From assembly GCA_000004985.1 (NCBI GenBank), contig GG738891.1: 64,000 nt of DNA, one strand, 5' to 3'. Both the position numbers and the translations under genes were made by a program. The stretch's first letter is position 1. The number at the start of each line of letters is the position of its first letter. The stretch comes from Naegleria gruberi. Lineage: Eukaryota. Under the pieces are notes generated by a model that worked only from the letters and a program-made list of their open reading frames with translations, was not told where the DNA came from and made no database searches. Below, in pieces: positions 8,615 to 38,244 of the stretch.

Positions 8615-10809
8615 ATGGATTCGCCCTTCTTTTCATCATCCCTTTCCCAGATGATATCGAAAAATGAACAATTACATCAACAACAACATTCTATGAGAAA
8701 CAACAATAACAATAATACTACTAACAGCATACTGAATAATAGTAATAATAATAATAATAATTGGAATGCTAATAATTTGATGAATCAATTTTCGGTCAAT
8801 CAAAATAGCCTTCAACAAAATCAACAACAACAGTTAGTCATTCCTTCCTTTAGTGATTTACTTTCAATGGGTAGTAATAATAATATAATGTCGAGTAGTA
8901 GTAATAACATGTTCATTAGTCAAATGTCAACAAATAATAGTAATAATAATGTAAATCTTGGCAGAAGAGCAAGTGTAGTTTCGAATAGTAGTAATACGAA
9001 TATGAATAATAACATTGGTAGTAGCAGTGCACCACAAGTACTTTCTTCTTCATCTTCTACGAATAGTAATGAAGCAACTAGCTCTTTTCAAGTTTCGAAT
9101 AATGCAACTGGAGAAGAATCATCACAGTTTCACCCAATTTCGTGTATTAACTGCAGAAAGGTACACAAAAAGTGCGATAAACAATTGCCTAGTTGTGCCA
9201 AATGTGTAGCTAAAGGAGCCACTTGTATAGTAAGTAATTAGTTCAATTGTTTCCATTCTATAAGAAATATTAGTATGAAAATCCAAAGAAAAGAGGAAAA
9301 GGGTCATTAGCTTACCCACACAAAAAGAAGAAACTTGATATTGTTCAACAAGAGGATGATGCCACGACCACTGTTATTCATCAAGAAAGTCCTTCTGCTG
9401 CAAACAAATCTCAGAGTGGATCTAGCTCAACAATTCAAAGTAATCAACTATATTCATTGAGAGTAGTGAATTTAGTGGAATTGTACTTTACTTTTATTTG
9501 TGCTGGACATCCATTCATTAGAAAGGCCAAGTTGGAGTATTTCATTAATAACTTTTTGATTTATTTTGAAAATGAGGTGAACATTGATCAGATTCATTTT
9601 GCTCCAAATGAATTCATTGAAAGCATTGGAGAATTGAAATGTATATATGCATTTTACTTGTCAGTACTGGCACTAGGTCATCAATTATTGGCAAATACAG
9701 AAACATCAGATGGAATTGCTAAACTATGTGAAGTTGAAATTGCAAAATTATCAATTGAATATTATTTGAATTTCTATTGGGCTTGCTCCACATTCCATCT
9801 CTGTATTTATTATAATGGAAGTGGCGTGCTTCAAAAAGCAAGATATTATGTTAGATTTGCTGATTTTTATTGTTTAGAATTCCCTAACATGACAGATATT
9901 ATTCAAAAAAATCTAGTCAAGAGGAAAGTCTTCTCAGTTGGGTATTATGGAGATTCTATCAATGAATTTGCAGTATTTTTCAAAAACATGCCAAATGTAT
10001 TTGAAATTACATCAAATCTCAAGTTGGAAAATATAGTTCTCCCAAATACATTAGAGTATTTACAATCAGCAAACGTTACTCCACAGAATTTCTTACTTTT
10101 CAGACAAGTGATTGATTTTTCTTTTGCAGTCACTACTCAATACAGAACAGAGCTAATGAAAAAGATGACAGATTGCCACTCCCCTCTATTTTTCACTGGA
10201 CAAATAGTTTTGAGATTAATGGTAATGAATGGCTTTAAGCTTTTATTCCTTTTAAAGGTTCCAGAGCATGCCAAACAGATGGCTGAAGAGGTGGCACTCA
10301 GAATTACCTTATTGGCAGATCATGATGTTTTCACATATGCTAATGGAGATGTTTCAATTAGTATCAAGACTGCCTCACGATTCCATTTGGATATTTGTAA
10401 AGATATTGAAGAAGGAAAGAGAACGAATAATGCAACATTGAAAACATCCAACGGAAAGGGATTGAATGTTGACTATTTTTCAATTTTGGAAAAGAATCTC
10501 AAAGCAATGAAAATTCATACCAAGAAATACGTACGTGTTCGCAATGAATGCAGTGGAATGATGAAAGAAATGGAGGAAATGTTGGAAAGACATAGACAGC
10601 GAAGAAATTTAGCAATTACTTTGGATAATCATTGCCAATCATGGATAAGTCAGGGCGATCAGTTCCCAGACCAACAAGATCCTGTTTTGTCATCTGTACT
10701 GACCTACCTCAATGAATTGAATCAACAAATGCCAAAGCAAATGACAACAACACCTCAGGAAGAATTTGATTCAGAATGGAGAGATATTTTTACTGATTCT
10801 CTTCTCTAA
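8615..10809 (+). CDS. Zn(II)2Cys6 (GAL4-type) binuclear-cluster transcription factor with a poly-Asn/Gln N-terminus; 2 exons
   Basis: Exon 1 is 8615..9229 and ends …TGTATA|GTAAGT. The intron is 9230..9288 and exon 2 is 9289..10809. The six-cysteine motif CINCRKVHKKCDKQLPSCAKCVAKGATC is followed by a basic linker and a long 'fungal transcription-factor middle homology'-like region. Upstream of the motif are long AAT/CAA-encoded N/Q runs. Confidence 0.6.
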
Positions 10810-13321
10810 TAGATTCCCAATATCTCTTTACAATGAGATACCATTTGTTTCACAACTATATCTTCAGGATTATCCCTTTTAAAAGTTTCGAATAATGTAA
10901 GAGCCTTCTCGATATCATTTTTAAAGAATAGAGAGCATGCCTCATTATAAATCTTCCATTTTTGCTTCCTTTCCTGTTCTCTCAATTCATATAACCATTC
11001 ATCTGCTGCATGTTGCGTAGAATCACCCAATTCGTATACTTTCTGTTCGAATTTCAATGTCAAATCGTTTTCCAATAATTCAGAGCTGTGTGGCAATAGA
11101 GAGCTATACTCATCAACCATCAATGATTGAATTTCAGCAATGAATCTTGTATGATATAATATCTCAACTGCTTTGTGCACTTCACTGCTAATTAGAATTT
11201 CTAAATTATAATATTTGGTCAATTGTAACATTTTTGAAAGACTCCAACGAGCATTGGTGATGAGAGTGAAATTTTTCACATCATTGGTTCCTATATTTCC
11301 ACACAGCACTTCCTGCGTAGTAACAGCTACTCTAAATCTGATATTTTCTATTAGATTCTTGAAGCTATCATTTCTAATTAACTTGTTGGAAGCCATTAAC
11401 CATTTCTTATCTCGAGTAATTTTTAGTTTTTCAATAATTGACCTGGCTGCTTGAACTCCCTTCTCCTGGTGTTTAGGGTGGTTAGCTGCTGTGTTAAAAG
11501 TGATGGAAATTGAATCATTTTCAAAATGTCCTAACAAGCCACCTTGAATTTTAGTGACACATGTCAATTGGTCGAAAATATCTGTCAATAAATGGATACT
11601 TTCTGAAGGAGGCATTTGAGATATCAGCTCTGAGAACTCATCTATCAATACACAAACAATAGTTACATGTTTCTTATCCAAATATAACGAAAATAATTGC
11701 TTTGATGTCAGCTGTCCTTTAAATAAATTAACAGTGCTTCTGATTGATGTCCTCATCGAGTCCATAAGTGAAGGATTGACAGCCACTGAGTCGTGTTCAG
11801 CGCTTACTTTCAAATCTCTTGATTTCTTCATAATTTCCATCTTTTCCACTTGATTCAACAAGTGTTGTGGAATAAACGAACGAAACAGACGAATCTGATT
11901 CGTCATTTGAACGAATTGCTTTTGTAATGTTCTCACCTCTGAGAATTTACTCGTTTTAATATCCAAACTTTCCATATCCATTCTCGAAACTGCCTGAAAT
12001 TGTTCAATTAAATTGTGGAATGGTTTTACAATTTTTACAGAAACAAAAATGGAAAGTGAAACTGCAATGCAAATTATTAAACAAGTTCCAATGATTGAAA
12101 CTATTAATCCAATTACCAAAGATCCAATAAAGTTCCATTGAGGTATTGAAAGTACAAAAATCCAATCCACTCCAGTTTCGGCACAGAATCGATTAATGTA
12201 AACGAAATCGTCCAAATGTTCGATTGTGATTGCATTGTTGCAGGGTAAACTTTTAAAGTTATTTCGAGTTTCTTCCAAAATTCTATGAGATAACTGATTA
12301 ATCTTGTCATCTTTGATTGTAAAAATAGTATTTCTCTTGACAGAGCTGTCAGAATTAATTTCTGTAATTTTTAAATCTTTTCTGTCAACTGTTACAAAAA
12401 TTTCAATAAGAAAGTTGAAAAATTAAACATACCAGCTACGAAATATTGCTTATCAGTTTCAAAAATAAAACTCCTCGATCCATCAATTGATCCAATTTTG
12501 GAAATTAAAATGTCAGAAAATCCACTGACAGTCATGTCAAATCCCAGATAATAATCAAATGAATTATCCTTCGATTTGTTAAAGGAATAGCAATATAACA
12601 AGGTAAAGAACGTGTCAATGTTTGGCGTTGTGACATCTACATAACTTCTCGAAAAAACTAATTGATTTGGATTGGCATTACAGCTGTCAGTTAAATCTGA
12701 CAGATCGACAGCAGGTATTACACTTGTAGGTTGATTATCCAATCTCCTTTTACAATACGGATATTTTTCCAAATCAGAATCACATTCATAAAAATACTGA
12801 GCTACCAATGACATGTTTAACCAATTGACTGACGTGCCAGAATAGAAAATTCCCAAAGCATTTCCACTAGGCTCTCCTATATACACCGTAACCACAAATT
12901 CCTTTCTCATTTTCCATTCAGATAAGAATGATTGATAAGTGACTTGTTCGATTTGTTTCGAATTTTGAAAATCTAATAAATATAACAATTGTCCTTTCAT
13001 TACATCCAAGGAAATCGTTGCTTCGACCACTGACTTGGTAACAGACGAAACTATATCAGAAAATTGAGCTTCCCTTTGACCAATCGTTCCTTTGATGGCA
13101 TTCGGAAGTAAAGAACTCATCCAGACAAGTGACAGGACGAGAATACTTGATATAACGAGCAGGGAAAGTAGTAGAATGATACAAAATTTGATAGAGCTAA
13201 AGAATTGGTAGGGTTCATGATTAGTTTCTTGAGTTTCGAATAATGATGAAGGAATATTTTGAGTTTCTTGAGTTTCTTGAGTTTCGGAAAGATTAGGTGT
13301 TATTTGATTAATCTTGACCAT
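10806..13321 (-). CDS. Receptor-type membrane protein with a class III nucleotidyl-cyclase homology domain (two TM segments flanking a ~330-aa extracellular sensor domain, then a TPR-like tail); 2 exons
   Basis: Exon 1 is 12433..13321 and exon 2 is 10806..12388, separated by a 44-nt intron 12389..12432 (GTATGT…AACAG). The intron length is 2 mod 3, which is exactly what is needed to join the two observed frames: …DKQYFVA-V-DRKDLKITE…. TM1 is FCIILLLSLLVISSILVLSLVW and TM2 is FIGSLVIGLIVSIIGTCLIICIAVSLSIFVSV. The cyclase-like block is VTIVCVLIDEFSEL…KIQGGLLG…FRVAVTTQEVLCGNIG…FTLITNARWSLSKM. Its stop codon overlaps the stop of the convergent gene 8615..10809. Confidence 0.5.
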
Positions 13322-13565: not shown

Positions 13566-14329
13566 TTAATGACGTCCAACAATACACTCAGCAATTGCTT
13601 CTGTCAATTCTGCAATATCTTCAGGTGCTCTACCAGAAAAAATAAACAAATCAGATCTGACAACTGTTGAATCTCTGTATTCAGCTCCAGCATTTTCCAA
13701 ATCTTGACGTATGGCAGGTGCTCCTGTCACTTTCTTTCCCTTAATCAATCCAGCATTGATCAATAATGAAGAAGACATGTCAATTGTGCCAATCATGTTT
13801 CCATAATTGTATGTTTTTTGAATTAGAGAAATAGCATCGCTGTCAGTTCTCATTGTGGCAGTTGACCAAGCTCCTCCTGCAATAAATAAGGCATCATATT
13901 GCAAAAGGTATGCTTCCTTGAATGTCTTGTTGATAGAAACAACTCTGTTTGCACGAACATATTGACATGAAACTATTTTTCTGTCAACTGTCCAACTTGG
14001 TCCAACAATGTCGACAGTTGCACCTCTGCTTGTCAAATAAATGTATGGGAATGTTAAATCTACCTCTTCAAAACAATGTGATGCCATAATTGCAACACGT
14101 GCTCCTTGAAGAATTGTTGGAAAATGCACAATTGGCTAATTTGACGTGTTAGATTAATGACAGATGTGTTAAAACTTACTTGTGAAATATTGTAAGCAAC
14201 TCCTCTGAGTCCTAACTTATCTTCTTCATCAAGAGAACTAATCAGAGGGAAAATATTGTTAATATTCTGAGCAGAAATGCATACTGTCAAGAATAGGAAC
14301 GCAACAATGATAAAAGTGAGTTTTGACAT
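13566..14329 (-). CDS. Secreted DJ-1/PfpI (class I glutamine-amidotransferase-like) family protein with the nucleophile Cys replaced; 2 exons
   Basis: Exon 1 is 14180..14329 and carries the signal peptide MSKLTFIIVAFLFLTVCISA. The 44-nt intron 14136..14179 (GTAAGT…AATTAG) leads into exon 2 at 13566..14135. The family motif …DALFIAGGAW…NMIGTIDMSSSLLINAGLIKGKKVTG… matches DJ-1/PfpI, but the position of the catalytic Cys in the I-C-H/A-G-P elbow reads I-D-M-S-S. Confidence 0.5.
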
Positions 14330-22500: not shown

Positions 22501-22534
22501 TGAAGATTCTATTAATTAAAAAATGTTATAAAAG

Positions 22535-22607
22535 AGAAACAAGATGGATTTGAACCACCGACCTTGGGGGTGAGAGCCCCATATTCTCCCCGCTGAACTA
22601 CTGTTCC
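22535..22607 (-). tRNA. tRNA-Glu (anticodon CUC)
   Basis: The reverse complement reads GGAACAG TA GTTC AGCGGGGA GAAT A TGGGG CTCTCAC CCCCA AGGTC GGTGG TTCAAAT CCATC TTGTTTC T. This gives the cloverleaf with a 7/4/5/5 stem layout, anticodon loop CUCUCAC, T-loop TTCAAAT and a 5-nt variable loop. An oligo-T terminator (CTTTTAT…TTTTTT) follows on the minus strand. The acceptor stem is weak (two G-U pairs, mostly A-U). Confidence 0.55.
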
Positions 22608-23895: not shown

Positions 23896-24080
23896 AATTT
23901 ATCGTAATCTTTCAGATTAAATACAAAATGCTAATGTAATTTATACGAATTTTATGATTGAATCATGTCAATAAACATGTATATTCAAATATTAATGAAT
24001 TTACAAATTTCTGTTAATGACCTAGATCAGAATTTCATCCTCTAAAAAAAGAGGTACAAATTTTTTGTAATGATAGATAA

Positions 24081-24169
24081 CCCGTTGTAGTCCAATGGTT
24101 AGGACATGTGACTCAGTCCAACAAGACTAAAGTTCTCACAAGATCCTGGTTCAACTCCAGGCAATGGGT
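24081..24169 (+). tRNA. Intron-containing tRNA gene (predicted 17-nt intron 24118..24134); the anticodon reads CAG but the isotype is unresolved
   Basis: The fold is CCCGTTG TA GTCC AATGGTTA GGAC A TGTGA CTCAGT[ccaacaagactaaagtt]C TCACA AGAT CCTGG TTCAACT CCAGG CAATGGG T. It has canonical D- and T-arms, the acceptor pairs with one G-U, an intron at the canonical 37/38 position with an anticodon-intron helix (AGTC/GACT), and an oligo-T (T9) about 17 nt downstream. The short 4-nt variable loop is inconsistent with a Leu/Ser class II tRNA, and position 37 would be U. Confidence 0.45.
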
Positions 24170-24368
24170 ATCCAATTATTGCAATCTGTTTCAATTTTTT
24201 TTTAACCTTCAGCAAACCTTAAAAGAACTATGCAATTTTCACCCCAACTCCGACCTATTCCTTTCGAATACTGTATCAAGGTCACAATTTCACTCCACTC
24301 TTTTCCACTTCGCTCCAAATTAAAAAAATCCAAGATTCTAATTTAGCGCCAAAATCAAATCTAAAAAA

Positions 24369-30064: not shown

Positions 30065-32530
30065 TTTTTTTGAGTTTCGAATAATGAGAATTTGCTTTCC
30101 ATTTTAGTGTGGTTACTAATTATGATTATTAATTGAATTGTACGACAATCTTTCCTTATTGTTGATTTATAGCAACTTTAATTTTCAATTGAAAAATATT
30201 TGTAAACTAATTCAAAAAAGTGTTAGAAAGTATCAATTTTAATCTTATATTCTCCTTCTTGACCCATAGTCCAAACAACTGTATAAGGAGCTTCAATTTC
30301 TCCACCAGAACTTTACCCAATTTATAAATTGTTGATTCGTCAATTCTTNNNNNNNNNNNNNNNNNNNNNNNNNNNNNNNNNNNNNNNNNNNNNNNNNNAT
30401 CCATTAGTACTTCCAATTGTTTGCCAACATGTACATCAAATACAGCAAGATAGGCCTTATCTGAAGAACCTCCTGCCCAATAGGATCCTGTGAAACTGGT
30501 ATATCCGAGAGATTTCTTGAATTTGTCGGCTTTTTTGGTTATTGAAATAGGTCAGTAATGAAATAGAAACTTACCGAAATAATTACCATGTCCAAACATT
30601 CTACCATTAGCAGCAGGTCTCAATTGAAGACCATTGATCATGATGGACAAAAAGTTTGCATTTTTAGAGCCATGCCAGAACAATTCTCTCTTTTGATTTC
30701 GTTTCCTTTGGACGAAATTGTCGAATAGTGTTTGAGTTTGATTATTGGTAACTCTGAAAGCTCTGTAAAACAAGTGACTATCTGAGCCCATCATCTTCTT
30801 GAGGAGTTTAATTTCATCTTGTGAAGCATCCTCCACAACAAGTCCATTCTTTTTAAGGAAATCAGGTTGATCAGATTGATCATGTTTTGTAATCTTGACT
30901 TGAGTAGCCATGACATCAAGAATTTCCTGCTGATCATCTAATAGTGAAGCAGCACTATCCTTATTACTCTTATCATTAATCAAATAATCCTGAACTTTCT
31001 TCATCTTTCTTGGAATGACAGCGTACAATTTCAGTAATTTTTCATTGAATGAATTCAGAAAATCCTCATCATTCTTGAAATTCTCATTCACCTTATACAA
31101 TTCATCCAAAATAGATTGAGCAGAGTCCAATTGTTCCTTTGTAACACTTCCAACTCCAACATTGTAATTGCTTACAATGGAAATATTCGAAAAATTATTC
31201 AACTCTGAAATTAAACTCTTCACATCTGGACTGGAATTCTCTAAATAAATATCATCCCCTGCATTGGTCATATCAGATCCCAAATTTGTCATATCTACAT
31301 AGCCTTTCTTCATCTTGGATCGAACTAAACTATCCCATTCACTCAAACTGGCTTTGATTGCAATTCCTGTGGCACCAACTCGACCATAGACAATATGAAT
31401 TTCACCATCCTTTTCAGTCATTTCATAATACTTGTTATTATTCTTGGAGGAGACCATAATTAATTTACAATATCTTCCGGCAGTGTTTGTGAAATTTTTC
31501 ACACTCGAGGAAAAGCTTCGGATTGGATGAATCGTGGAGGAAAAATTATTAACTCTCTTCATCATGCTCATGCTTCTGTTGAGCATTAGTGGTGAAATAA
31601 TCTCCCGATGGGAAGCAATAGATAAAGTACAGTTTAGTTTGCGCATTTTTTTGTGGTTGACTATTGTGAAATTGATCAAGATTTTGATTGGGATTGAAAT
31701 TGATTGAAAGATAACGAAAGAAATGATTTTTAATTATTAGTATTGTAAACTCTGTGAACACTGTTATGTAGAAGTTAAATCTCCCAGTTGATGATAGTAT
31801 TCCACCTCATGTTTTTATTGGCGAGAAATTAGATACATGCTAATTACATTTCTTTTTATTGTACTGAAATTTATTTTTTACTTTCTCATTATAATGAAAC
31901 AAAAGTATGAATCTGATGATGTAACAACATCGGAAAAGATGTAGAAAATGGATAGAACATTGAAGTATTAATAATTAAAGAATTAAAATGTATTTCACAT
32001 TTAAACAAGTTGATGATTTATTTCATATTGTATGTACTCATAATTTTATAAATGATTTATTGAATGAAGCAGGTTGTAGTGAGAAGCAAATGGAGGCATT
32101 TTTTTTTGCCTACTACACTGTAGATTGTCAAGGAAGAAACCACGTGTTCGATTCTTGTCCAAGGACTTTGATTATGCTTGAAAATTAAAAATAAACGTGA
32201 GCGTGGCCAAGTACCTAACAATCATCCATTACTAAAATTAAAAATAATTGTGAGTTGTAATGAAAATCTAAAATAAGAGAATGTGAGTATAAAAACTCAG
32301 TTGCACCTTGTATGAACACCCACAAAAATTAAAAAAGAAATACTGAAAATGTTGAATCAAGATATGAAATACCAACAAGCTGACACTCATGAAATTAATG
32401 ATGACGATGATTGTTTCCTTCGTTATGAAGATATCACCGATAATACTCACAAAGTTACATCCAATAACACTGCCTCAAGTCCCTCGATATTCTCACCACT
32501 CTCAACTATCCTCTCTCAAGAAGAAAGTTA
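30060..32530. repeat. Right arm of the inverted segmental duplication (partner 20530..22500), interrupted by a scaffold gap
   Basis: See the left arm. Gene order differs between the arms. Read on the minus strand, the right arm runs PARP, then the gap, then the small ORF, then the His-rich gene. The left arm runs the small ORF, the 5' of the His-rich gene, the gap, then the PARP 3' exons. Confidence 0.6.
30389..31679 (-). CDS. Poly(ADP-ribose) polymerase-like protein (WGR domain + PARP regulatory/catalytic domains), 3'-truncated by a scaffold gap
   Basis: Exon 1 is 30575..31679 and the 45-nt intron is 30530..30574. Exon 2 runs 30389..30529 into the N run at 30349-30388. The WGR motif is KYYEMTEKDGEIHIVYGRVGATG. 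The catalytic block is ELFWHGSKNANFLSIMINGLQLRPAANGRMFGHGNYF|ADKFKK…AYLAVFDVHVGKQLEV, with the H-G-S…Y…E-type PARP signature partly visible. The missing C-terminus corresponds to the fragment at 22202..22500. Confidence 0.55.
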
Positions 32531-33021
32531 CTGAGTTTCAAAACATTAACTCAACCTCTCAATCACAACCACATGAAATTATTCACCCATATGAAAATCA
32601 AGTTCAAAACGTCTCACATATTATACTTCAACAAACCGCTCAACAAATGCCAATGTCTTTCATTAACAAATCAAATTTCGAGAGTTGCAGTGATTTTAGA
32701 TTCATCAATAGATCTTCCGAAAAAATACTTGAAATTGGAATATACCAGTTTTCCTTTGTAAACCAAAATTTGATTCGTACTAGACGTTTACGTGTTACCA
32801 TTCCAGAATATAGAGAAACAGGAAATGCATATCGTGTAAAATATATTATCGACAAATACCAAGGACAAATTTATTTGGAAATTAAAGGAACTTTTGTTAA
32901 GCTAATTAGTAAAGGTAAACTTAATACAATTATCATCAATGAAAACAATATAAGTTTACAAAAAATCAATTACAACAATCAAAGCTCATTGGAATGTACT
33001 GATTATGAAGTCTATGAATGA
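32389..33021 (+). CDS. Hypothetical protein, paralog B of the diverged pair (paralog A is 19939..20652)
   Basis: A 210-aa ORF (MKLMMTMIVSFVMKISPIILTKLHPITLPQVPRYSHHSQLSS…). Relative to paralog A, a 1-nt indel upstream changes which ATG is usable. The C-terminal two-thirds have diverged strongly. Confidence 0.4.
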   Translation: MKLMMTMIVSFVMKISPIILTKLHPITLPQVPRYSHHSQLSSLKKKVTEFQNINSTSQSQPHEIIHPYENQVQNVSHIILQQTAQQMPMSFINKSNFESCSDFRFINRSSEKILEIGIYQFSFVNQNLIRTRRLRVTIPEYRETGNAYRVKYIIDKYQGQIYLEIKGTFVKLISKGKLNTIIINENNISLQKINYNNQSSLECTDYEVYE

Positions 33022-33621: not shown

Positions 33622-33924
33622 TTGGAGGCCAAACAACAAGAGAAGGCGATTAAATCTGCTGAAAAAGTAAAAACAGCAGAAACTATTGAAAAAGTCAGCA
33701 AATGGGCCAGCAGAACCCCTAATTTTCGTAAGTTCCCCACTAGATACGATAATAGACAAGCTGGCTACAACTACAACAACAACAAGCACAACAACAACAA
33801 CTTCAACCAAGGACAAGGTAATGGTTATCAATCCAACAATCAAGGCTTCAGAAGATTCAATAATGCTCACCAAGCAAGTGGAACCTCTTCAAATTCCTCC
33901 AACTCAAACAACAACAATAAATGA
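33622..33924 (+). CDS. Hypothetical Asn/Gln/Gly-rich small protein, possibly the 3' exon of an unresolved multi-exon gene
   Basis: A 100-aa ORF (…KQQEKAIKSAEKVKTAETIEKVSKWASRTPNFRKFPTRYDNRQAGYNYNNN…NQGFRRFNN…). Overlapping alternative frames in 33100-33960 are also open (MELFESNPSEEVSGKRARVADEPDDWF…; a Thr-rich frame from 33686 that runs into the gap), so the gene model is ambiguous. Confidence 0.2.
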   Translation: MEAKQQEKAIKSAEKVKTAETIEKVSKWASRTPNFRKFPTRYDNRQAGYNYNNNKHNNNNFNQGQGNGYQSNNQGFRRFNNAHQASGTSSNSSNSNNNNK

Positions 33925-34087
33925 TGCCAACATTCCTCTTGGTGGTCGCCTCTCTCGTTTTCACAGCGGATGGCAANNNNNNNNNNNNNNNNNNNNNNNN
34001 NNNNNNNNNNNNNNNNNNNNNNNNNNAATATTACTTTTATATTTTTGTGATACTAGTAACTATATATCTACTATTACACTTAATAGT

Positions 34088-34250
34088 AGATATATAGTTA
34101 CTAACAATCAAATTGGTGATGAAGGATCCAAACATATAAGTGAAATGAAACGGTTGATATCACTTGATATTGGTAACAATTTAATTAGTGATGAAGGAGT
34201 TAAATATATCAGTGAAATGAAACAATTGATATCACAAGAAAATAGGTAAT
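34088..34250 (+). pseudogene. Partial RNI-type LRR coding fragment, a paralogous piece of the 22822..23895 LRR gene, starting just after a scaffold gap
   Basis: The translation IVTNNQIGDEGSKHISEMKRLISLDIGNNLISDEGVKYISEMKQLIS resembles …IGNNDIGDEGAKHISQLK…EEGAKWISEMKQLKYLNIS… of the LRR gene. The 5' part would lie in the gap 33977-34026. Whether this is a truncated pseudogene or an intact gene broken by the gap cannot be decided. Confidence 0.3.
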
Positions 34251-35064: not shown

Positions 35065-36501
35065 TTATTGTTTTCTATCAACTCTTGAAAATTCAATTAA
35101 TTTCTTAATAGAATCAACATGTTCGTTCATGGTTTCGTCTCCAATTTCTTTCACTTCATTGGTGAAAAGGTTCAATAATTGATTGAATTTTGAATTCCAT
35201 CGTTCATGTTTAGTTTCCCCATTCTTCATTTCCATCAAATAACCCTTCACATTTTCAACAAATCTAACCAAAGCAATGGCCTTTCGAATTCCATTAGTTT
35301 CGTAATAATTTCCAAGTTGATTTGCATTGATTTTAACCTGCTTCTCCTCTCTGACCTTCTTTCCTTCAACAGTCTCATAAGAAAGTGTTAATTTCACATT
35401 CGATTCTCCTTTAAAATCATTCTTTGCTTTCAATCTTAATAAAACTATTCCTCCCTTAACTCCTCTTTCATCTAATTGACTAGCAGAACAAGTATCAACT
35501 TTCATAATCTCGCCAGTTGATTCTCCTGCCATATTTGTTCCAAAACATTTTTCAATTTCATAATTTTCACATTCCAAACTCAACTTGACATTGTAACAAA
35601 TCGGTGTTACAATATAATTGAAATCCTGATTCAAAATCTTTGTAAAATCCTCAGTTGATTTAACAGAGAAATAATTACAACCACGAACTTGAGTCAATTC
35701 TTCAACAATATCCGAATTGAAATCTAAACCAATTCCAATAAAAGTTGAAAAGATATTATACGGACCAGAGTTTGCATCTTTTGTAAGAATATCGAGAGTG
35801 TCAGTTCCACCCACATTTGGACAAGCATCTGTCAAGTAAATAATTCTATTAGAATTGGATAAATCAGACGAATCTAGAGTGGAAAATAAATCAATTCCTC
35901 TTTGCATGCCAGCTTCAAAATTTGTAGATCCCTTCTCTTTAATCTTTAGAACAGTTTCCTTGAGCGATTTCTTATCTAAATCCTGAACAATTGTTAATGG
36001 AAGAAAAGTTTCGGCCTTGTCATCGAATAAAACAATTCCCAATCTTTCAAATTCTCTCAAATTGTCAATTATTTCACAAATTACTTGATTGGCAACTTGC
36101 ATTTTGGTTTTTTCCTTGTTAGACATGGCAGATCCCATTGATCCACTAATATCCAATACAATCTTTAGTTTACAATAATTATTAAATAATCATAACTAAA
36201 CAACACGTACAACTAAATTCAAATCCCTTCTTTCATTCAAACCATCTTTACAACTGTGCAATCCTAATGCCAAGTGAATTTGTCTTTCCGCACTGATCGG
36301 ATCATGATCAACAGCAATCGAATAGGCAGTTTCCAATAATTTATCAGAAACCTTCATCACACCAGTTTGATAAAAGTATTCTTTCATAATTCCCTCGAAT
36401 GTAATGGAAGAATTGGAGGGTAATCTCTTTCCACAATTCAAAACCTCTTTAAAAGATTCGGAATTAAAAGCTCCGGAAGAAAATAAAGCTGCTTTCATCA
36501 T
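35065..36501 (-). CDS. von Willebrand factor type A (vWA) domain protein; 2 exons
   Basis: Exon 1 is 36201..36501 (ATG at 36501, MMKAALFSS…DLNLV). The 38-nt intron 36163..36200 (GTACGT…AACTAAAG) leads into exon 2 at 35065..36162, which begins IVLDISGSMGSAM, a classic MIDAS DxSxS motif. The remaining vWA features include …GSTNFEAGMQRGIDLF…RIIYLTDACPNVGG…. Confidence 0.55.
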
Positions 36502-37309
36502 TTATTTTTTTGATTTCTGCAAGTTCAGTAAAATTGGATTTTACAATGGAAATTATCGGAAAACAATATATTATTCGAAACATTTCAGTTCTTAAGGCAA
36601 GTTTGATTTTTACAAGAATTTTGAAATAAGAAACAAGAAGAATTGAGGAAACTTTTTGTTACTGTAAATTACCCGCTCATTTTTATTGACGCTTGTTTTG
36701 ACGATTTTATAGTCATGAATGACGCCTTTGTTTATGCTTGTTAAGGTGTCATTGGGACGTTGTTGTGGACGTCAAAATGACGTTTTTTTTCGTCATTTTG
36801 ACGGTGTCAATTTGAGAGTCATTAAGACGTCAAAAAAAGCGTCCTCAATGACGTCTCAAAAAGTGTCTCCAATGACGTTGCAGAATGATTATTAATTTTT
36901 GATAAATTGAAATTTTATTGAACTATTCATAATTCTTACAAGTTGGAAATCCTTCATCTTGAACCATTTCACACTGAGTGAAACTCAATGCTGTGAAAGA
37001 TTCACACCGTGTGAATTAATATTGTAAAAGATTTCACACCATCAAAGATGACAAGGAAATTGACAAGAGTTTCTTATAAAAACGTGAAATAAAAATTTGA
37101 ATTGATATGTCTTGTAAATGAATTGAAATGATGTAATATAATTGATAACTGATACGACTTACTAGTATGTTGAGGTATTTTTTTTGAAAAATAGTTTAAA
37201 CTGGTTGCAAAAATAGAAAGTGTTTATTTTAGAGATGAAGCCAAATATGGAAAGACATTTAATATAATGTAAAGGCCATTTTGTGAATTGGTTTGAAGTG
37301 AAAAGAGCC

Positions 37310-38244
37310 NNNNNNNNNNNNNNNNNNNNNNNNNNNNNNNNNNNNNNNNNNNNNNNNNNNNNNNNNNNNNNNNNNNNNNNNNNNNNNNNNNNNNNNNNNN
37401 NNNNNNNNNNNNNNNNNNNNNNNNNNNNNNNNNNNNNNNNNNNNNNNNNNNNNNNNNNNNNNNNNNNNNNNNNNNNNNNNNNNNNNNNNNNNNNNNNNNN
37501 NNNNNNNNNNNNNNNNNNNNNNNNNNNNNNNNNNNNNNNNNNNNNNNNNNNNNNNNNNNNNNNNNNNNNNNNNNNNNNNNNNNNNNNNNNNNNNNNNNNN
37601 NNNNNNNNNNNNNNNNNNNNNNNNNNNNNNNNNNNNNNNNNNNNNNNNNNNNNNNNNNNNNNNNNNNNNNNNNNNNNNNNNNNNNNNNNNNNNNNNNNNN
37701 NNNNNNNNNNNNNNNNNNNNNNNNNNNNNNNNNNNNNNNNNNNNNNNNNNNNNNNNNNNNNNNNNNNNNNNNNNNNNNNNNNNNNNNNNNNNNNNNNNNN
37801 NNNNNNNNNNNNNNNNNNNNNNNNNNNNNNNNNNNNNNNNNNNNNNNNNNNNNNNNNNNNNNNNNNNNNNNNNNNNNNNNNNNNNNNNNNNNNNNNNNNN
37901 NNNNNNNNNNNNNNNNNNNNNNNNNNNNNNNNNNNNNNNNNNNNNNNNNNNNNNNNNNNNNNNNNNNNNNNNNNNNNNNNNNNNNNNNNNNNNNNNNNNN
38001 NNNNNNNNNNNNNNNNNNNNNNNNNNNNNNNNNNNNNNNNNNNNNNNNNNNNNNNNNNNNNNNNNNNNNNNNNNNNNNNNNNNNNNNNNNNNNNNNNNNN
38101 NNNNNNNNNNNNNNNNNNNNNNNNNNNNNNNNNNNNNNNNNNNNNNNNNNNNNNNNNNNNNNNNNNNNNNNNNNNNNNNNNNNNNNNNNNNNNNNNNNNN
38201 NNNNNNNNNNNNNNNNNNNNNNNNNNNNNNNNNNNNNNNNNNNN
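37310..38244. other. Scaffold gap (935 N). Other gaps are 22087-22137 (51 N), 30349-30388 (40 N) and 33977-34026 (50 N). Single ambiguous bases are at 28118 and 28186.
   Basis: Runs of n in the sequence. ORF-track entries made of X residues (37224-38401) are artefacts of this gap. Confidence 0.95.

What the first reader, a model, noticed from the sequence alone, without database searches (positions are those of the whole stretch)
10806..13321. Two-TM receptor with an extracellular sensor domain and a class-III cyclase-like domain whose catalytic residues look degenerate
The topology (short N-terminal tail with ETQ repeats, TM1, ~330-aa extracellular domain, TM2, cytoplasmic cyclase-homology domain, TPR-like tail) resembles the dictyostelid osmosensing adenylate cyclase ACG and bacterial CHASE/Cache cyclases. 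In the cyclase block the first metal-binding Asp is present (VLIDEF, aligning to FaDIvGFT). The second (kiktiGDaYm) is replaced (KIQGGLLG). The base-specifying positions of the …GDtVN… motif are also changed (FTLITNARW), although the transition-state Asn/Arg are retained. This suggests a pseudo-cyclase, or a subunit that needs a heterodimer partner to complete an active site. The intron joining the two halves is only 44 nt and is needed to connect the frames.
Basis: partly seen in the sequence, partly recalled or inferred. Interest (0 to 1): 0.6.

Follow-up and report, generated by a model that had tools for sequence, protein, structure and literature searches.

The report
Naegleria dCache receptor with dead cyclase domain
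This Naegleria gruberi gene encodes a two-pass membrane receptor with a bacterial-type double-Cache sensor outside and a cyclase-like domain inside; that domain has lost most catalytic residues, so it probably signals without making cAMP or cGMP, and it belongs to a large amoeba family with the same losses.

Summary
The gene is real. It lies on the minus strand at 13321..10806, in two exons joined by a 44-nt GT..AG intron, and encodes 823 aa. It matches a public N. gruberi protein annotated "adenylate/guanylate cyclase".

- Metal Asp1 is lost (Leu544; Asp546 is two positions off).
- Metal Asp2 is kept (Asp588).
- The specificity Lys is His584; the second specificity residue, Thr671, is kept.
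- The transition-state Asn and Arg are not retained (Ser679/Trp678, Met683/Lys682).

In 48 close relatives (Naegleria spp., Willaertia), Asp1 and Lys are never present and Arg is absent or rare. HAMP, the transducer motif, the dimer arm and the tail stay conserved.

Most likely this is a ligand-gated pseudo-cyclase receptor. It lacks residues on both sides of the composite active site, so a partner cannot complete one. The 44-nt intron fits relatives better than the public 71-nt model.

The parts
12433..13321 (-). Exon 1 (889 nt, aa 1-296 plus the first base of codon 297)
   Evidence: ORF and translation. ORF-called fragments of relatives stop at the same point, so the intron position is conserved.
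12389..12432 (-). Intron, 44 nt, GTATGT...AACAG, phase 1. The public model uses a downstream acceptor instead (intron 12362-12432, 71 nt).
   Evidence: Relatives carry 9-12 residues here that the 71-nt model deletes. Metagenomic ortholog L001 has a 41-nt intron at the same site and reads colinearly with the 44-nt version.
10806..12388 (-). Exon 2 (1583 nt, through the TAG stop at 10806-10808)
13196..13321 (-). Cytoplasmic N-terminal tail, aa 1-42, acidic with ETQ repeats, predicted disordered
   Evidence: Sequence. pLDDT below 50 for residues 1-42. Mean pairwise identity in the family is 0.17.
13121..13195 (-). TM1, about aa 43-67
   Evidence: Hydropathy peak 3.0. Start of the long helix 44-115 in the model.
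12132..13120 (-). Extracellular dCache (double PDC) sensor domain, aa 68-382; this span contains the intron
12045..12131 (-). TM2, about aa 383-411
   Evidence: Hydropathy peak 2.96. Continuous helix running into HAMP in the model.
11883..12044 (-). HAMP domain, about aa 412-465 (VKPF...SEVRTLQKQFVQM)
   Evidence: hhalign places it on the Pfam HAMP of P0155 (residues 374-425). Conserved Pro and Glu; it is the most conserved module in the family (pairwise identity 0.42).
11802..11882 (-). Cyclase-transducer-like helix with the FIPQHLL motif, about aa 466-492
   Evidence: Phe and Pro are 100% conserved and His 94% in the family. The same F/Y-V/I-P motif occurs in canonical relatives.
11703..11801 (-). 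Disordered Ser/Lys-rich linker, about aa 493-525, within a Pro-to-Asp1 spacing about 45 residues longer than canonical
   Evidence: pLDDT below 50. Pairwise identity 0.13. Spacing from the motif Pro to the Asp1 column is 74 residues here, against 28-30 in 17 relatives that have Asp at that column.
11019..11702 (-). Class III cyclase-homology domain with a degenerate catalytic centre, about aa 526-753. Key codons: Leu544 (11646-11648), His584 (11526-11528), Asp588 (11514-11516), Thr671 (11265-11267), Ser679 (11241-11243), Met683 (11229-11231).
10809..11018 (-). C-terminal tail, aa 754-823: family-specific DEWLYEL helix plus a TPR-like helical hairpin shared with canonical bacterial-type cyclases
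   Evidence: Four helices in the model. Invariant or near-invariant D, W, W, Y, A, A, D, C. The hairpin is present in canonical P0153, P0154 and P0156. Weak TPR hits in one relative.

Best explanation
The locus encodes a receptor-type pseudo-cyclase. An extracellular dCache domain, presumably binding a small molecule, is coupled through TM2, a HAMP domain and a conserved FIPxHLL transducer helix to a dimeric class III cyclase-homology domain. That domain keeps its fold and its dimer-arm motif (GNxG) but has lost the first metal-binding Asp, the substrate Lys, the transition-state Asn and Arg, and the KGK phosphate loop.

The output is therefore most likely not cAMP or cGMP synthesis. More likely it is a ligand-dependent conformational change of the dead CHD dimer and its conserved DEWxYEL/TPR-like tail, read out by protein-protein interaction or possibly nucleotide binding.

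It is one member of a large heterolobosean paralog family (Naegleria gruberi, N. fowleri, N. lovaniensis, Willaertia magna) that descends from an active bacterial-type dCache-HAMP-cyclase.

Shown here: gene structure, topology, folds, homology, residue losses, and the family-wide pattern. Inferred: loss of catalysis, ligand gating, and the nature of the output.
For: - Gene and splice.
- Identity: 99% match to N. gruberi 'adenylate/guanylate cyclase'.
- Homology: family profile against solved cyclases, E 1.7e-12. dCache_1 plus HAMP by hhalign, probability 98.1%.
- Catalytic positions in P0001: L544, H584, D588, T671, S679 (or W678), M683 (or K682).
- Family counts (n=48): Asp1 0, Lys 0, Asp2 24, Asn 43 (gapped register), Arg 0 (gapped register) or 7 (ungapped). 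All 16 canonical relatives in the same alignment have D, D, N and R.
- The KGK loop is replaced and carries an insert.
- The spacing from the transducer Pro to the Asp1 column is fixed at 28-30 residues in relatives that have Asp1, but has a median of 78 in the family and is 74 here.
- The cytoplasmic modules are more conserved than the sensor: HAMP 0.42, tail 0.36, CHD 0.32, ectodomain 0.28, linker 0.13. That pattern suggests a selected, functional signalling part rather than decay.
- A relative with canonical residues and the same architecture exists (P0153).
- A non-catalytic CHD has a solved precedent: 6yii, 'class III adenylyl cyclase-like ATP-binding protein'.
Against: - No biochemical data exist; inactivity is inferred from substitutions only.
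- Asp588 (Asp2) and Thr671 are kept, and acidic residues sit just after the lost Asp1 (Asp546, Glu547). They could conceivably reach a metal.
- The Asn/Arg register is ambiguous by one residue. In the ungapped register Lys682 sits at the Arg position.
- From my own knowledge, some mycobacterial cyclases tolerate non-canonical substrate residues.
- No partner or readout for the proposed non-enzymatic output has been identified.
- Expression is unverified.
Confidence: 0.6

Rival explanations
1. It is a regulatory subunit that heterodimerises with catalytically competent Naegleria cyclases and modulates them. It would most likely act as a ligand-controlled dominant-negative, because it cannot complete an active site.
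For: - The dimer-arm motif GNxG is invariant (G651 and N652 100%, G654 98%).
- The CHD fold is intact.
- Class III domains work as dimers with composite sites (established knowledge).
- Naegleria encodes many cyclases (PMC9928731, read).
Against: - Both composite sites of such a heterodimer would be defective: Asp1 is missing on one side, and Lys/Asn/Arg on the other.
- No canonical cyclase lies nearby in the window.
- Nothing shows heterodimer specificity.
Confidence: 0.17
2. It is still an active nucleotide cyclase that uses a non-canonical active site. For example, Asp588 plus Asp546 or Glu547 could bind metal, and His584 and Lys682 could stand in for Lys and Arg.
For: - The public annotation calls it adenylate/guanylate cyclase.
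- Asp2 and Thr are retained; Lys682 aligns with Arg in the ungapped register.
- HAMP and the transducer motif, which normally regulate catalysis, are strongly conserved.
Against: - Asp1 is absent in 48 of 48 family members and replaced by Tyr, His, Leu, Lys or Phe.
- Asp2 is kept in only half of them, so there is no family-wide selection for a metal site.
- The KGK phosphate loop is lost.
- The fixed 28-30-residue coupling distance between transducer and catalytic core is broken by a variable disordered insert.
- P0001 additionally lost the Asn that 43 of 48 relatives keep.
Confidence: 0.12
3. It is a decaying pseudogene copy of a cyclase gene.
For: - P0001 deviates from its own family at three well-conserved positions: Asn to Ser679, Tyr to Phe, Leu to Met.
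- It has no close ortholog in other sequenced Naegleria species; the best is 38% identity.
Against: - There are 2472 nt of open frame across two exons in a 33% GC genome, with a canonical in-frame intron.
- The model is confident for all folded domains.
- A metagenomic relative with 41-61% identity keeps the same structure.
- Structural residues are conserved.
Confidence: 0.03

Closest known systems
Bacterial-type dCache-HAMP class IIIb adenylate cyclases. Examples: the canonical-residue relative P0153 from a JGI metagenome, and the single Naegleria Cache-cyclase noted by Upadhyay et al. 2016 (PMC4822843).
   Same: Same architecture: TM, dCache, TM, HAMP, F/Y-x-P transducer helix, CHD, C-terminal TPR-like hairpin. 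Clear sequence homology across the sensor, HAMP, CHD and tail.
   Different: The canonical proteins have all of D, K, D, T, N, R plus the KGK loop, and a fixed 28-30-residue spacing from transducer to core. This protein has L, H, D, T, S, M, no KGK, an extra spacing of about 45 residues around a disordered linker, and an added DEWxYEL helix.
Dictyostelium discoideum adenylate cyclase G (ACG)
   Same: A two-TM receptor with an extracellular double-PDC-type sensor and one cytoplasmic CHD that acts as a homodimer. The ACG side of this comparison rests on my own knowledge and on PMC9928731.
Class III adenylyl cyclase-like ATP-binding protein of Pseudomonas aeruginosa (PDB 6yii)
   Different: It is a soluble bacterial transcriptional regulator with no receptor part. 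It is only a distant structural relative, and I did not read the paper.
Pseudo-symmetric heterodimeric cyclases (mammalian AC C1/C2, soluble guanylate cyclase alpha/beta)
   Different: There the two halves are complementary: one supplies both Asp, the other supplies Lys/Asp/Asn/Arg. Here residues from both sets are missing in the same chain and across the family, so complementation cannot restore a site.
Trypanosomatid receptor-type adenylate cyclases (GRESAG4/ESAG4)
   Different: From my own knowledge, the trypanosome proteins have a single TM and a periplasmic-binding-protein-like ectodomain, and they are catalytically active.

Membership tests
Class III nucleotidyl cyclase (Pfam PF00211 Guanylate_cyc): homology and fold | Significant sequence-profile match to the catalytic domain | tested here: met
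   The single sequence falls below the curated cut-off (16.4 bits against 21.9, E 0.007). The 54-sequence family profile hits solved cyclases at E 1.7e-12 to 1e-8, and 14 of 54 relatives hit PF00211, the best at 1.2e-7.
Class III nucleotidyl cyclase (Pfam PF00211 Guanylate_cyc): homology and fold | Cyclase-homology (palm-like beta-alpha-beta-beta-alpha-beta) fold | tested here: met
Class III nucleotidyl cyclase: catalytically competent enzyme | Two metal-binding Asp (FxDIxxFT and iGD motifs) | tested here: not met
   Asp1 is Leu544; Asp2 is kept as Asp588. Across the family Asp1 is present in 0 of 48 and Asp2 in 24 of 48.
Class III nucleotidyl cyclase: catalytically competent enzyme | Substrate-specifying Lys (or Glu for GTP) plus Asp/Thr (or Cys) | tested here: not met
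   Lys is His584 (family 0 of 48 Lys). The second position, Thr671, is retained.
Class III nucleotidyl cyclase: catalytically competent enzyme | Transition-state Asn and Arg on helix alpha4 (VNxAsRLE) | tested here: not met
   The sequence is NARWSLSKML. The positions are Ser679/Met683 (gapped register) or Trp678/Lys682 (ungapped register). There is no Asn in either register. The family keeps Asn in 43 of 48, but Arg in 0 of 48 (gapped) or 7 of 48 (ungapped).
Class III nucleotidyl cyclase: catalytically competent enzyme | Measured formation of cAMP or cGMP | not testable with these tools
   Needs an enzyme assay.
dCache_1 extracellular sensor domains | Double PDC fold with a long N-terminal helix, placed between two TM helices | tested here: met
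dCache_1 extracellular sensor domains | Sequence-profile match to Pfam dCache_1 / MCP-like_PDC_1 | tested here: inconclusive
   P0001 has no Pfam hit, even at E 10. Three of 54 aligned sequences hit MCP-like_PDC_1. The family profile aligns at 98.1% probability (E 1.2e-13) to a Nostoc kinase across its Pfam dCache_1 (144-271) and HAMP (374-425) regions.
HAMP domain | About 50-residue two-helix module directly after the last TM, with a conserved Pro in helix 1 and Glu at the start of helix 2 | tested here: met
   VKPF...SEVRTLQKQFVQM. Pro is 96% and Glu 100% conserved in the family. hhalign places it on the Pfam HAMP of P0155. The helices appear in the model. The Pfam HAMP model itself gives no direct hit.
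CHASE-type receptor cyclases (Dictyostelium ACG type) | CHASE ectodomain | tested here: not met
Complementary heterodimeric cyclase subunit (C1-like or C2-like) | A complete set of residues on one side of the composite site: either both Asp, or Lys + Asp/Thr + Asn + Arg | tested here: not met
   Neither set is complete: the metal side has L544 and D588, and the other side has H584, T671, S679 and M683. No close paralog supplies Asp1.

The most novel reading that the evidence does not exclude
A sizeable share of the Naegleria/Willaertia 'cyclase' repertoire may not be cyclases at all. Instead it may be a lineage-specific family of dCache-HAMP receptors whose dead cyclase-homology dimer and DEWxYEL/TPR-like tail form a new, non-enzymatic output module. 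In that case these amoebae would have a bacterial-style small-molecule chemoreceptor array with a eukaryote-invented readout, and Cache sensors would be far more common in this lineage than the 'single protein' reported in 2016.
Probability: 0.3. Interest if true: 0.7.

Novelty: new variant of a known kind. Interest (0 to 1): 0.45.

Why it matters
- Naegleria's many annotated cyclases are cited as evidence of elaborate cyclic-nucleotide signalling (PMC9928731). If dozens of them lack a metal-binding Asp and the transition-state Arg, those counts overstate enzymatic capacity and hide a separate receptor family.
- The family offers a natural case of a receptor that keeps sensor, HAMP and transducer helix after losing catalysis. 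That is useful for asking what a cyclase-homology dimer can do besides make cAMP.
- It extends the recognised spread of dCache sensors in eukaryotes. Pfam models miss them here.
- Relatives occur in the pathogen N. fowleri.
- A practical point: the public gene model probably uses the wrong splice acceptor.

Tried and rejected
- Word-indexed protein searches returned almost only the self-hit, because candidate selection was swamped. The exhaustive representative search was needed.
- The spliced 823-aa protein could not be submitted to the restricted tools, so the public 814-aa model P0001 was used for the search and the structure. Numbering after residue 296 differs by 9.
- Looking up the contig encoding P0001 found nothing.
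- The afdb50 fold library was unavailable.
- tblastn of the protein against the window found no paralog. A 28%-identity hit at 32524-32775 (E 0.029) lies in an unrelated ORF and was dismissed as chance.
- The neighbouring genes are unrelated: a DJ-1/PfpI gene upstream, and a converging 450-aa ORF with no Pfam match.
- Literature searches for described pseudo-cyclases, the cyclase transducer element and the 6yii paper found nothing usable. The Naegleria genome paper is not held.
I rejected this because it breaks the conserved G/D-F/L register that anchors beta1 in every alignment.
Full report
**Numbering.** Residues are numbered on the 823-aa protein (44-nt intron) unless stated. The public 814-aa model, and the structure model built on it, are 9 lower after residue 296.

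**What is in the sequence.**
- The window has about 33% GC.
- On the minus strand, one ORF starts at the ATG at 13321 and a second ends at the TAG at 10806-10808. A stop separates them in the unspliced reading.
- Removing 12389-12432 (GTATGTTT...TGTAACAG, 44 nt, phase 1) joins them into an 823-aa protein.
- The protein is 99% identical over its full length to a public 814-aa protein annotated 'adenylate/guanylate cyclase [Naegleria gruberi]'.
- The only difference is the acceptor. The public model splices to an AG 27 nt further on (intron 12362-12432, 71 nt) and so lacks VDRKDLKIT.

**Which intron.**
- In a 54-sequence alignment, relatives carry 9-12 residues exactly where the public model has a gap. 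Their pattern (D-x-x-D/E-hydrophobic-x-hydrophobic) matches VDRKDLKIT.
- A metagenomic contig from a related organism (L001, 33% GC) encodes the closest relative as two adjacent ORFs, with 61% identity in exon 1 and 42% in exon 2.
- The two ORFs are split at the same codon by a 41-nt GTAAGT...AATAG intron. Its spliced reading, YLVA-I-DNRDTKTAVLDDNGNVARKT, is gap-free against YFVA-V-DRKDLKITEINSDSSVKRNT.
- Several ORF-called fragments of other paralogs stop at this same point, so the intron position is old.
Only transcript data can settle it.

**Topology and domains.**
- Hydropathy gives two strong segments, at about 43-67 and 383-411.
- An AlphaFold2 model, built on the public 814-aa sequence with the 54-sequence alignment, has mean pLDDT 83.5. 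Only the N-terminal tail (1-42) and residues 485-514 (814 numbering) fall below 50.
- Pfam finds nothing in the ectodomain of this protein, even at E 10.
- The family profile aligns with 98.1% probability (E 1.2e-13, 293 columns) to a Nostoc histidine kinase. The aligned stretch covers that kinase's Pfam dCache_1 (144-271), MCP-like_PDC_1 and HAMP (374-425) regions.
- After TM2 comes VKPF...SEVRTLQKQFVQM. This has the conserved HAMP Pro and Glu and is the most conserved part of the family.
- Next is RSFIPQHLL. Its Phe and Pro are invariant and its His is 94% conserved in the family. It matches the F/Y-V/I-P motif that precedes the catalytic domain in canonical relatives.
- The C-terminal 70 residues form four helices. 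The last helical hairpin (W..YN.A....F......A...F........D.......C) is shared with canonical cyclases, including bacterial CHASE2 cyclases. The DEWxYEL helix before it is specific to this family.

**Is it a cyclase domain?** As a fold and a homolog, yes.
- The single sequence is sub-threshold (PF00211, 16.4 bits against 21.9).
- The family profile hits solved class III cyclases at E 1.7e-12 (Cya2), 3e-12 (CyaB) and 1e-9 (CyaC).
- Fourteen of 54 relatives hit PF00211.

**Catalytic residues.**
- Three independent alignments agree for Asp1, Lys and Asp2: phmmer to 3r5g/2w01, the family profile to the PDB, and MAFFT of 99 domains including 16 canonical ones.
- In VTIVCVLIDEFSEL against ITVMFTDIADFTSI, the first metal Asp falls on Leu544.
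- In GGLLGHFENDSISITFN against GTIDKYIGDAIMAFWN, the Lys falls on His584 and the second metal Asp is retained as Asp588.
- In KNFTLITNARWSLSKMLQ against LNYTVIGDTANLASRLE, Thr671 is retained. The N and R of TNAR lie on the canonical G-D-x-V stretch.
- The Asn and Arg positions are Ser679/Met683 if a one-residue insertion is allowed. That register puts the family's conserved Asn on the catalytic Asn. In the ungapped register they are Trp678/Lys682.
- Either way there is no Asn, and an Arg-like residue appears in only one register.
- The VKGK phosphate loop of canonical relatives is replaced and carries an insert of roughly 20 residues.

**The family.**
- An exhaustive HMMER scan of 1.84 billion representatives gave 1867 hits at E <= 1e-3, 238 at <= 1e-10 and 59 at <= 1e-30.
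- Named members are from N. gruberi, N. lovaniensis, N. fowleri and Willaertia magna. Most are labelled 'predicted', 'hypothetical' or 'Guanylate cyclase domain-containing'.
- More distant degenerate relatives come from metagenomes.
- Counts in 48 close members:

| Position | Residue present | Replacements |
|---|---|---|
| Asp1 | 0 of 48 | Tyr 15, His 10, Leu 7, Lys 7, Phe 4 |
| Lys | 0 of 48 | |
| Asp2 | 24 of 48 | |
| Thr/Ser | 36 of 48 | |
| Asn | 43 of 48 (gapped register) | |
| Arg | 0 of 48 (gapped register) or 7 of 48 (ungapped) | Leu 24, Met 18 (gapped register) |

- The 16 canonical sequences in the same alignment all have D, D, N and R.
- The spacing from the transducer-motif Pro to the Asp1 column is 28-30 residues in all 17 relatives that have Asp there. 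Its median is 78 (range 23-107) in the family and it is 74 here. The extra residues are disordered and poorly conserved.
- Despite this, the signalling parts are more conserved than the sensor. Mean pairwise identities are HAMP 0.42, tail 0.36, transducer helix 0.35, CHD 0.32, ectodomain 0.28 and linker 0.13.
- The residues conserved in the CHD are structural or lie in the dimer arm: FN, H, G-N-x-G, K.F, R, YELG.
- P0153, a metagenomic protein, has the same dCache-like sensor, HAMP, tail and all canonical residues. The family therefore looks like a degenerate offshoot of an active bacterial-type dCache-HAMP-cyclase.
- P0001 has gone one step further than most relatives by also losing the conserved Asn.

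**How it most likely works.**
- Shown: a two-TM receptor with an extracellular dCache fold, a HAMP domain, a conserved transducer helix, an intact but catalytically stripped CHD, and a conserved helical tail.
- Inferred: ligand binding to the dCache domain is passed through TM2 and HAMP to a CHD homodimer that cannot perform two-metal catalysis. The signal is read out through conformation or oligomeric state of the CHD and tail, by a bound partner or possibly by nucleotide binding. PDB 6yii, described as a cyclase-like ATP-binding protein, is a precedent.
- I give this about 0.6.
- The heterodimer idea survives only as negative regulation of active cyclases (about 0.17). Residues are missing from both halves of the composite site, so a partner cannot complete one.
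- A still-active, non-canonical enzyme gets about 0.12. It is disfavoured by the lack of any family-wide conservation of a metal site.
- A decaying pseudogene gets about 0.03. It is disfavoured by 2.5 kb of open frame in an AT-rich genome and a confidently folded model.

**Comparison with what is known.**
- In architecture it is closest to bacterial-type dCache-HAMP class IIIb cyclases.
- It is not a member of the catalytically competent class, because three defining features were tested and not met.
- It shares topology with Dictyostelium ACG, but the sensor is dCache rather than CHASE.
- Upadhyay et al. [quoted passage not shown] The structural and profile evidence here suggests that divergent dCache domains are present in many more.
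- The Naegleria pangenome paper counts at least 81 cyclases as environmental sensors (PMC9928731) without mentioning catalytic competence in the passages I read. I found no paper describing this degeneracy, but my literature access was limited.

**Verdict.** This is a real, already catalogued gene whose public name probably overstates its function. I rate it a new variant of a known kind, of moderate interest.

Noticed in passing
window 12362-12432 (minus strand): The public N. gruberi protein model (814 aa) uses an acceptor 27 nt downstream of the one supported by relatives, so it deletes VDRKDLKIT from the dCache domain. This is probably a gene-model error.
   Followed up: yes
window 10806-10809: The stop codon of this gene (TAG, minus strand, 10806-10808) overlaps the stop codon (TAA, 10807-10809) of a converging 450-aa plus-strand ORF (9457-10809) that has no Pfam match. 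The two genes must therefore share 3'-UTR sequence.
   Followed up: partly
window 13566-14129 (minus strand): The upstream neighbour is a DJ-1/PfpI family protein (E 1.2e-26). It is unrelated to the receptor, and the intergenic region is only about 244 bp.
   Followed up: partly
L001 3380-3660: In the metagenomic ortholog the ORF stops right after EIGDSTQGNADGK, where this gene continues with DEWLYEL. A separate 70-aa ORF follows. This suggests that the relative has a second intron (or a frameshift) before the tail, which N. gruberi lacks.
   Followed up: no
window about 33900-34250: There is a run of unknown bases (an assembly gap, seen as X in the ORF translation). It is followed by a 72-bp tandem repeat (34102-34235, 1.9 copies) that encodes leucine-rich-repeat-like sequence.
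   Followed up: no
window 36001-38000: GC content drops sharply to 0.20, against about 0.33 elsewhere in the window.
   Followed up: no
window 22534-22607 and 24080-24170: Two tRNA genes: tRNA-Glu(CUC) on the minus strand and tRNA-Leu(CAG) on the plus strand.
   Followed up: no
relatives P0046, P0052, P0055 (alignment A1): A subgroup of the family lacks the HAMP connector and second helix. Three alignment members also hit the Pfam NIT (nitrate/nitrite sensing) model, so the same dead-cyclase output appears to be combined with at least one other type of sensor. I did not check whether these are the same three proteins.
   Followed up: no
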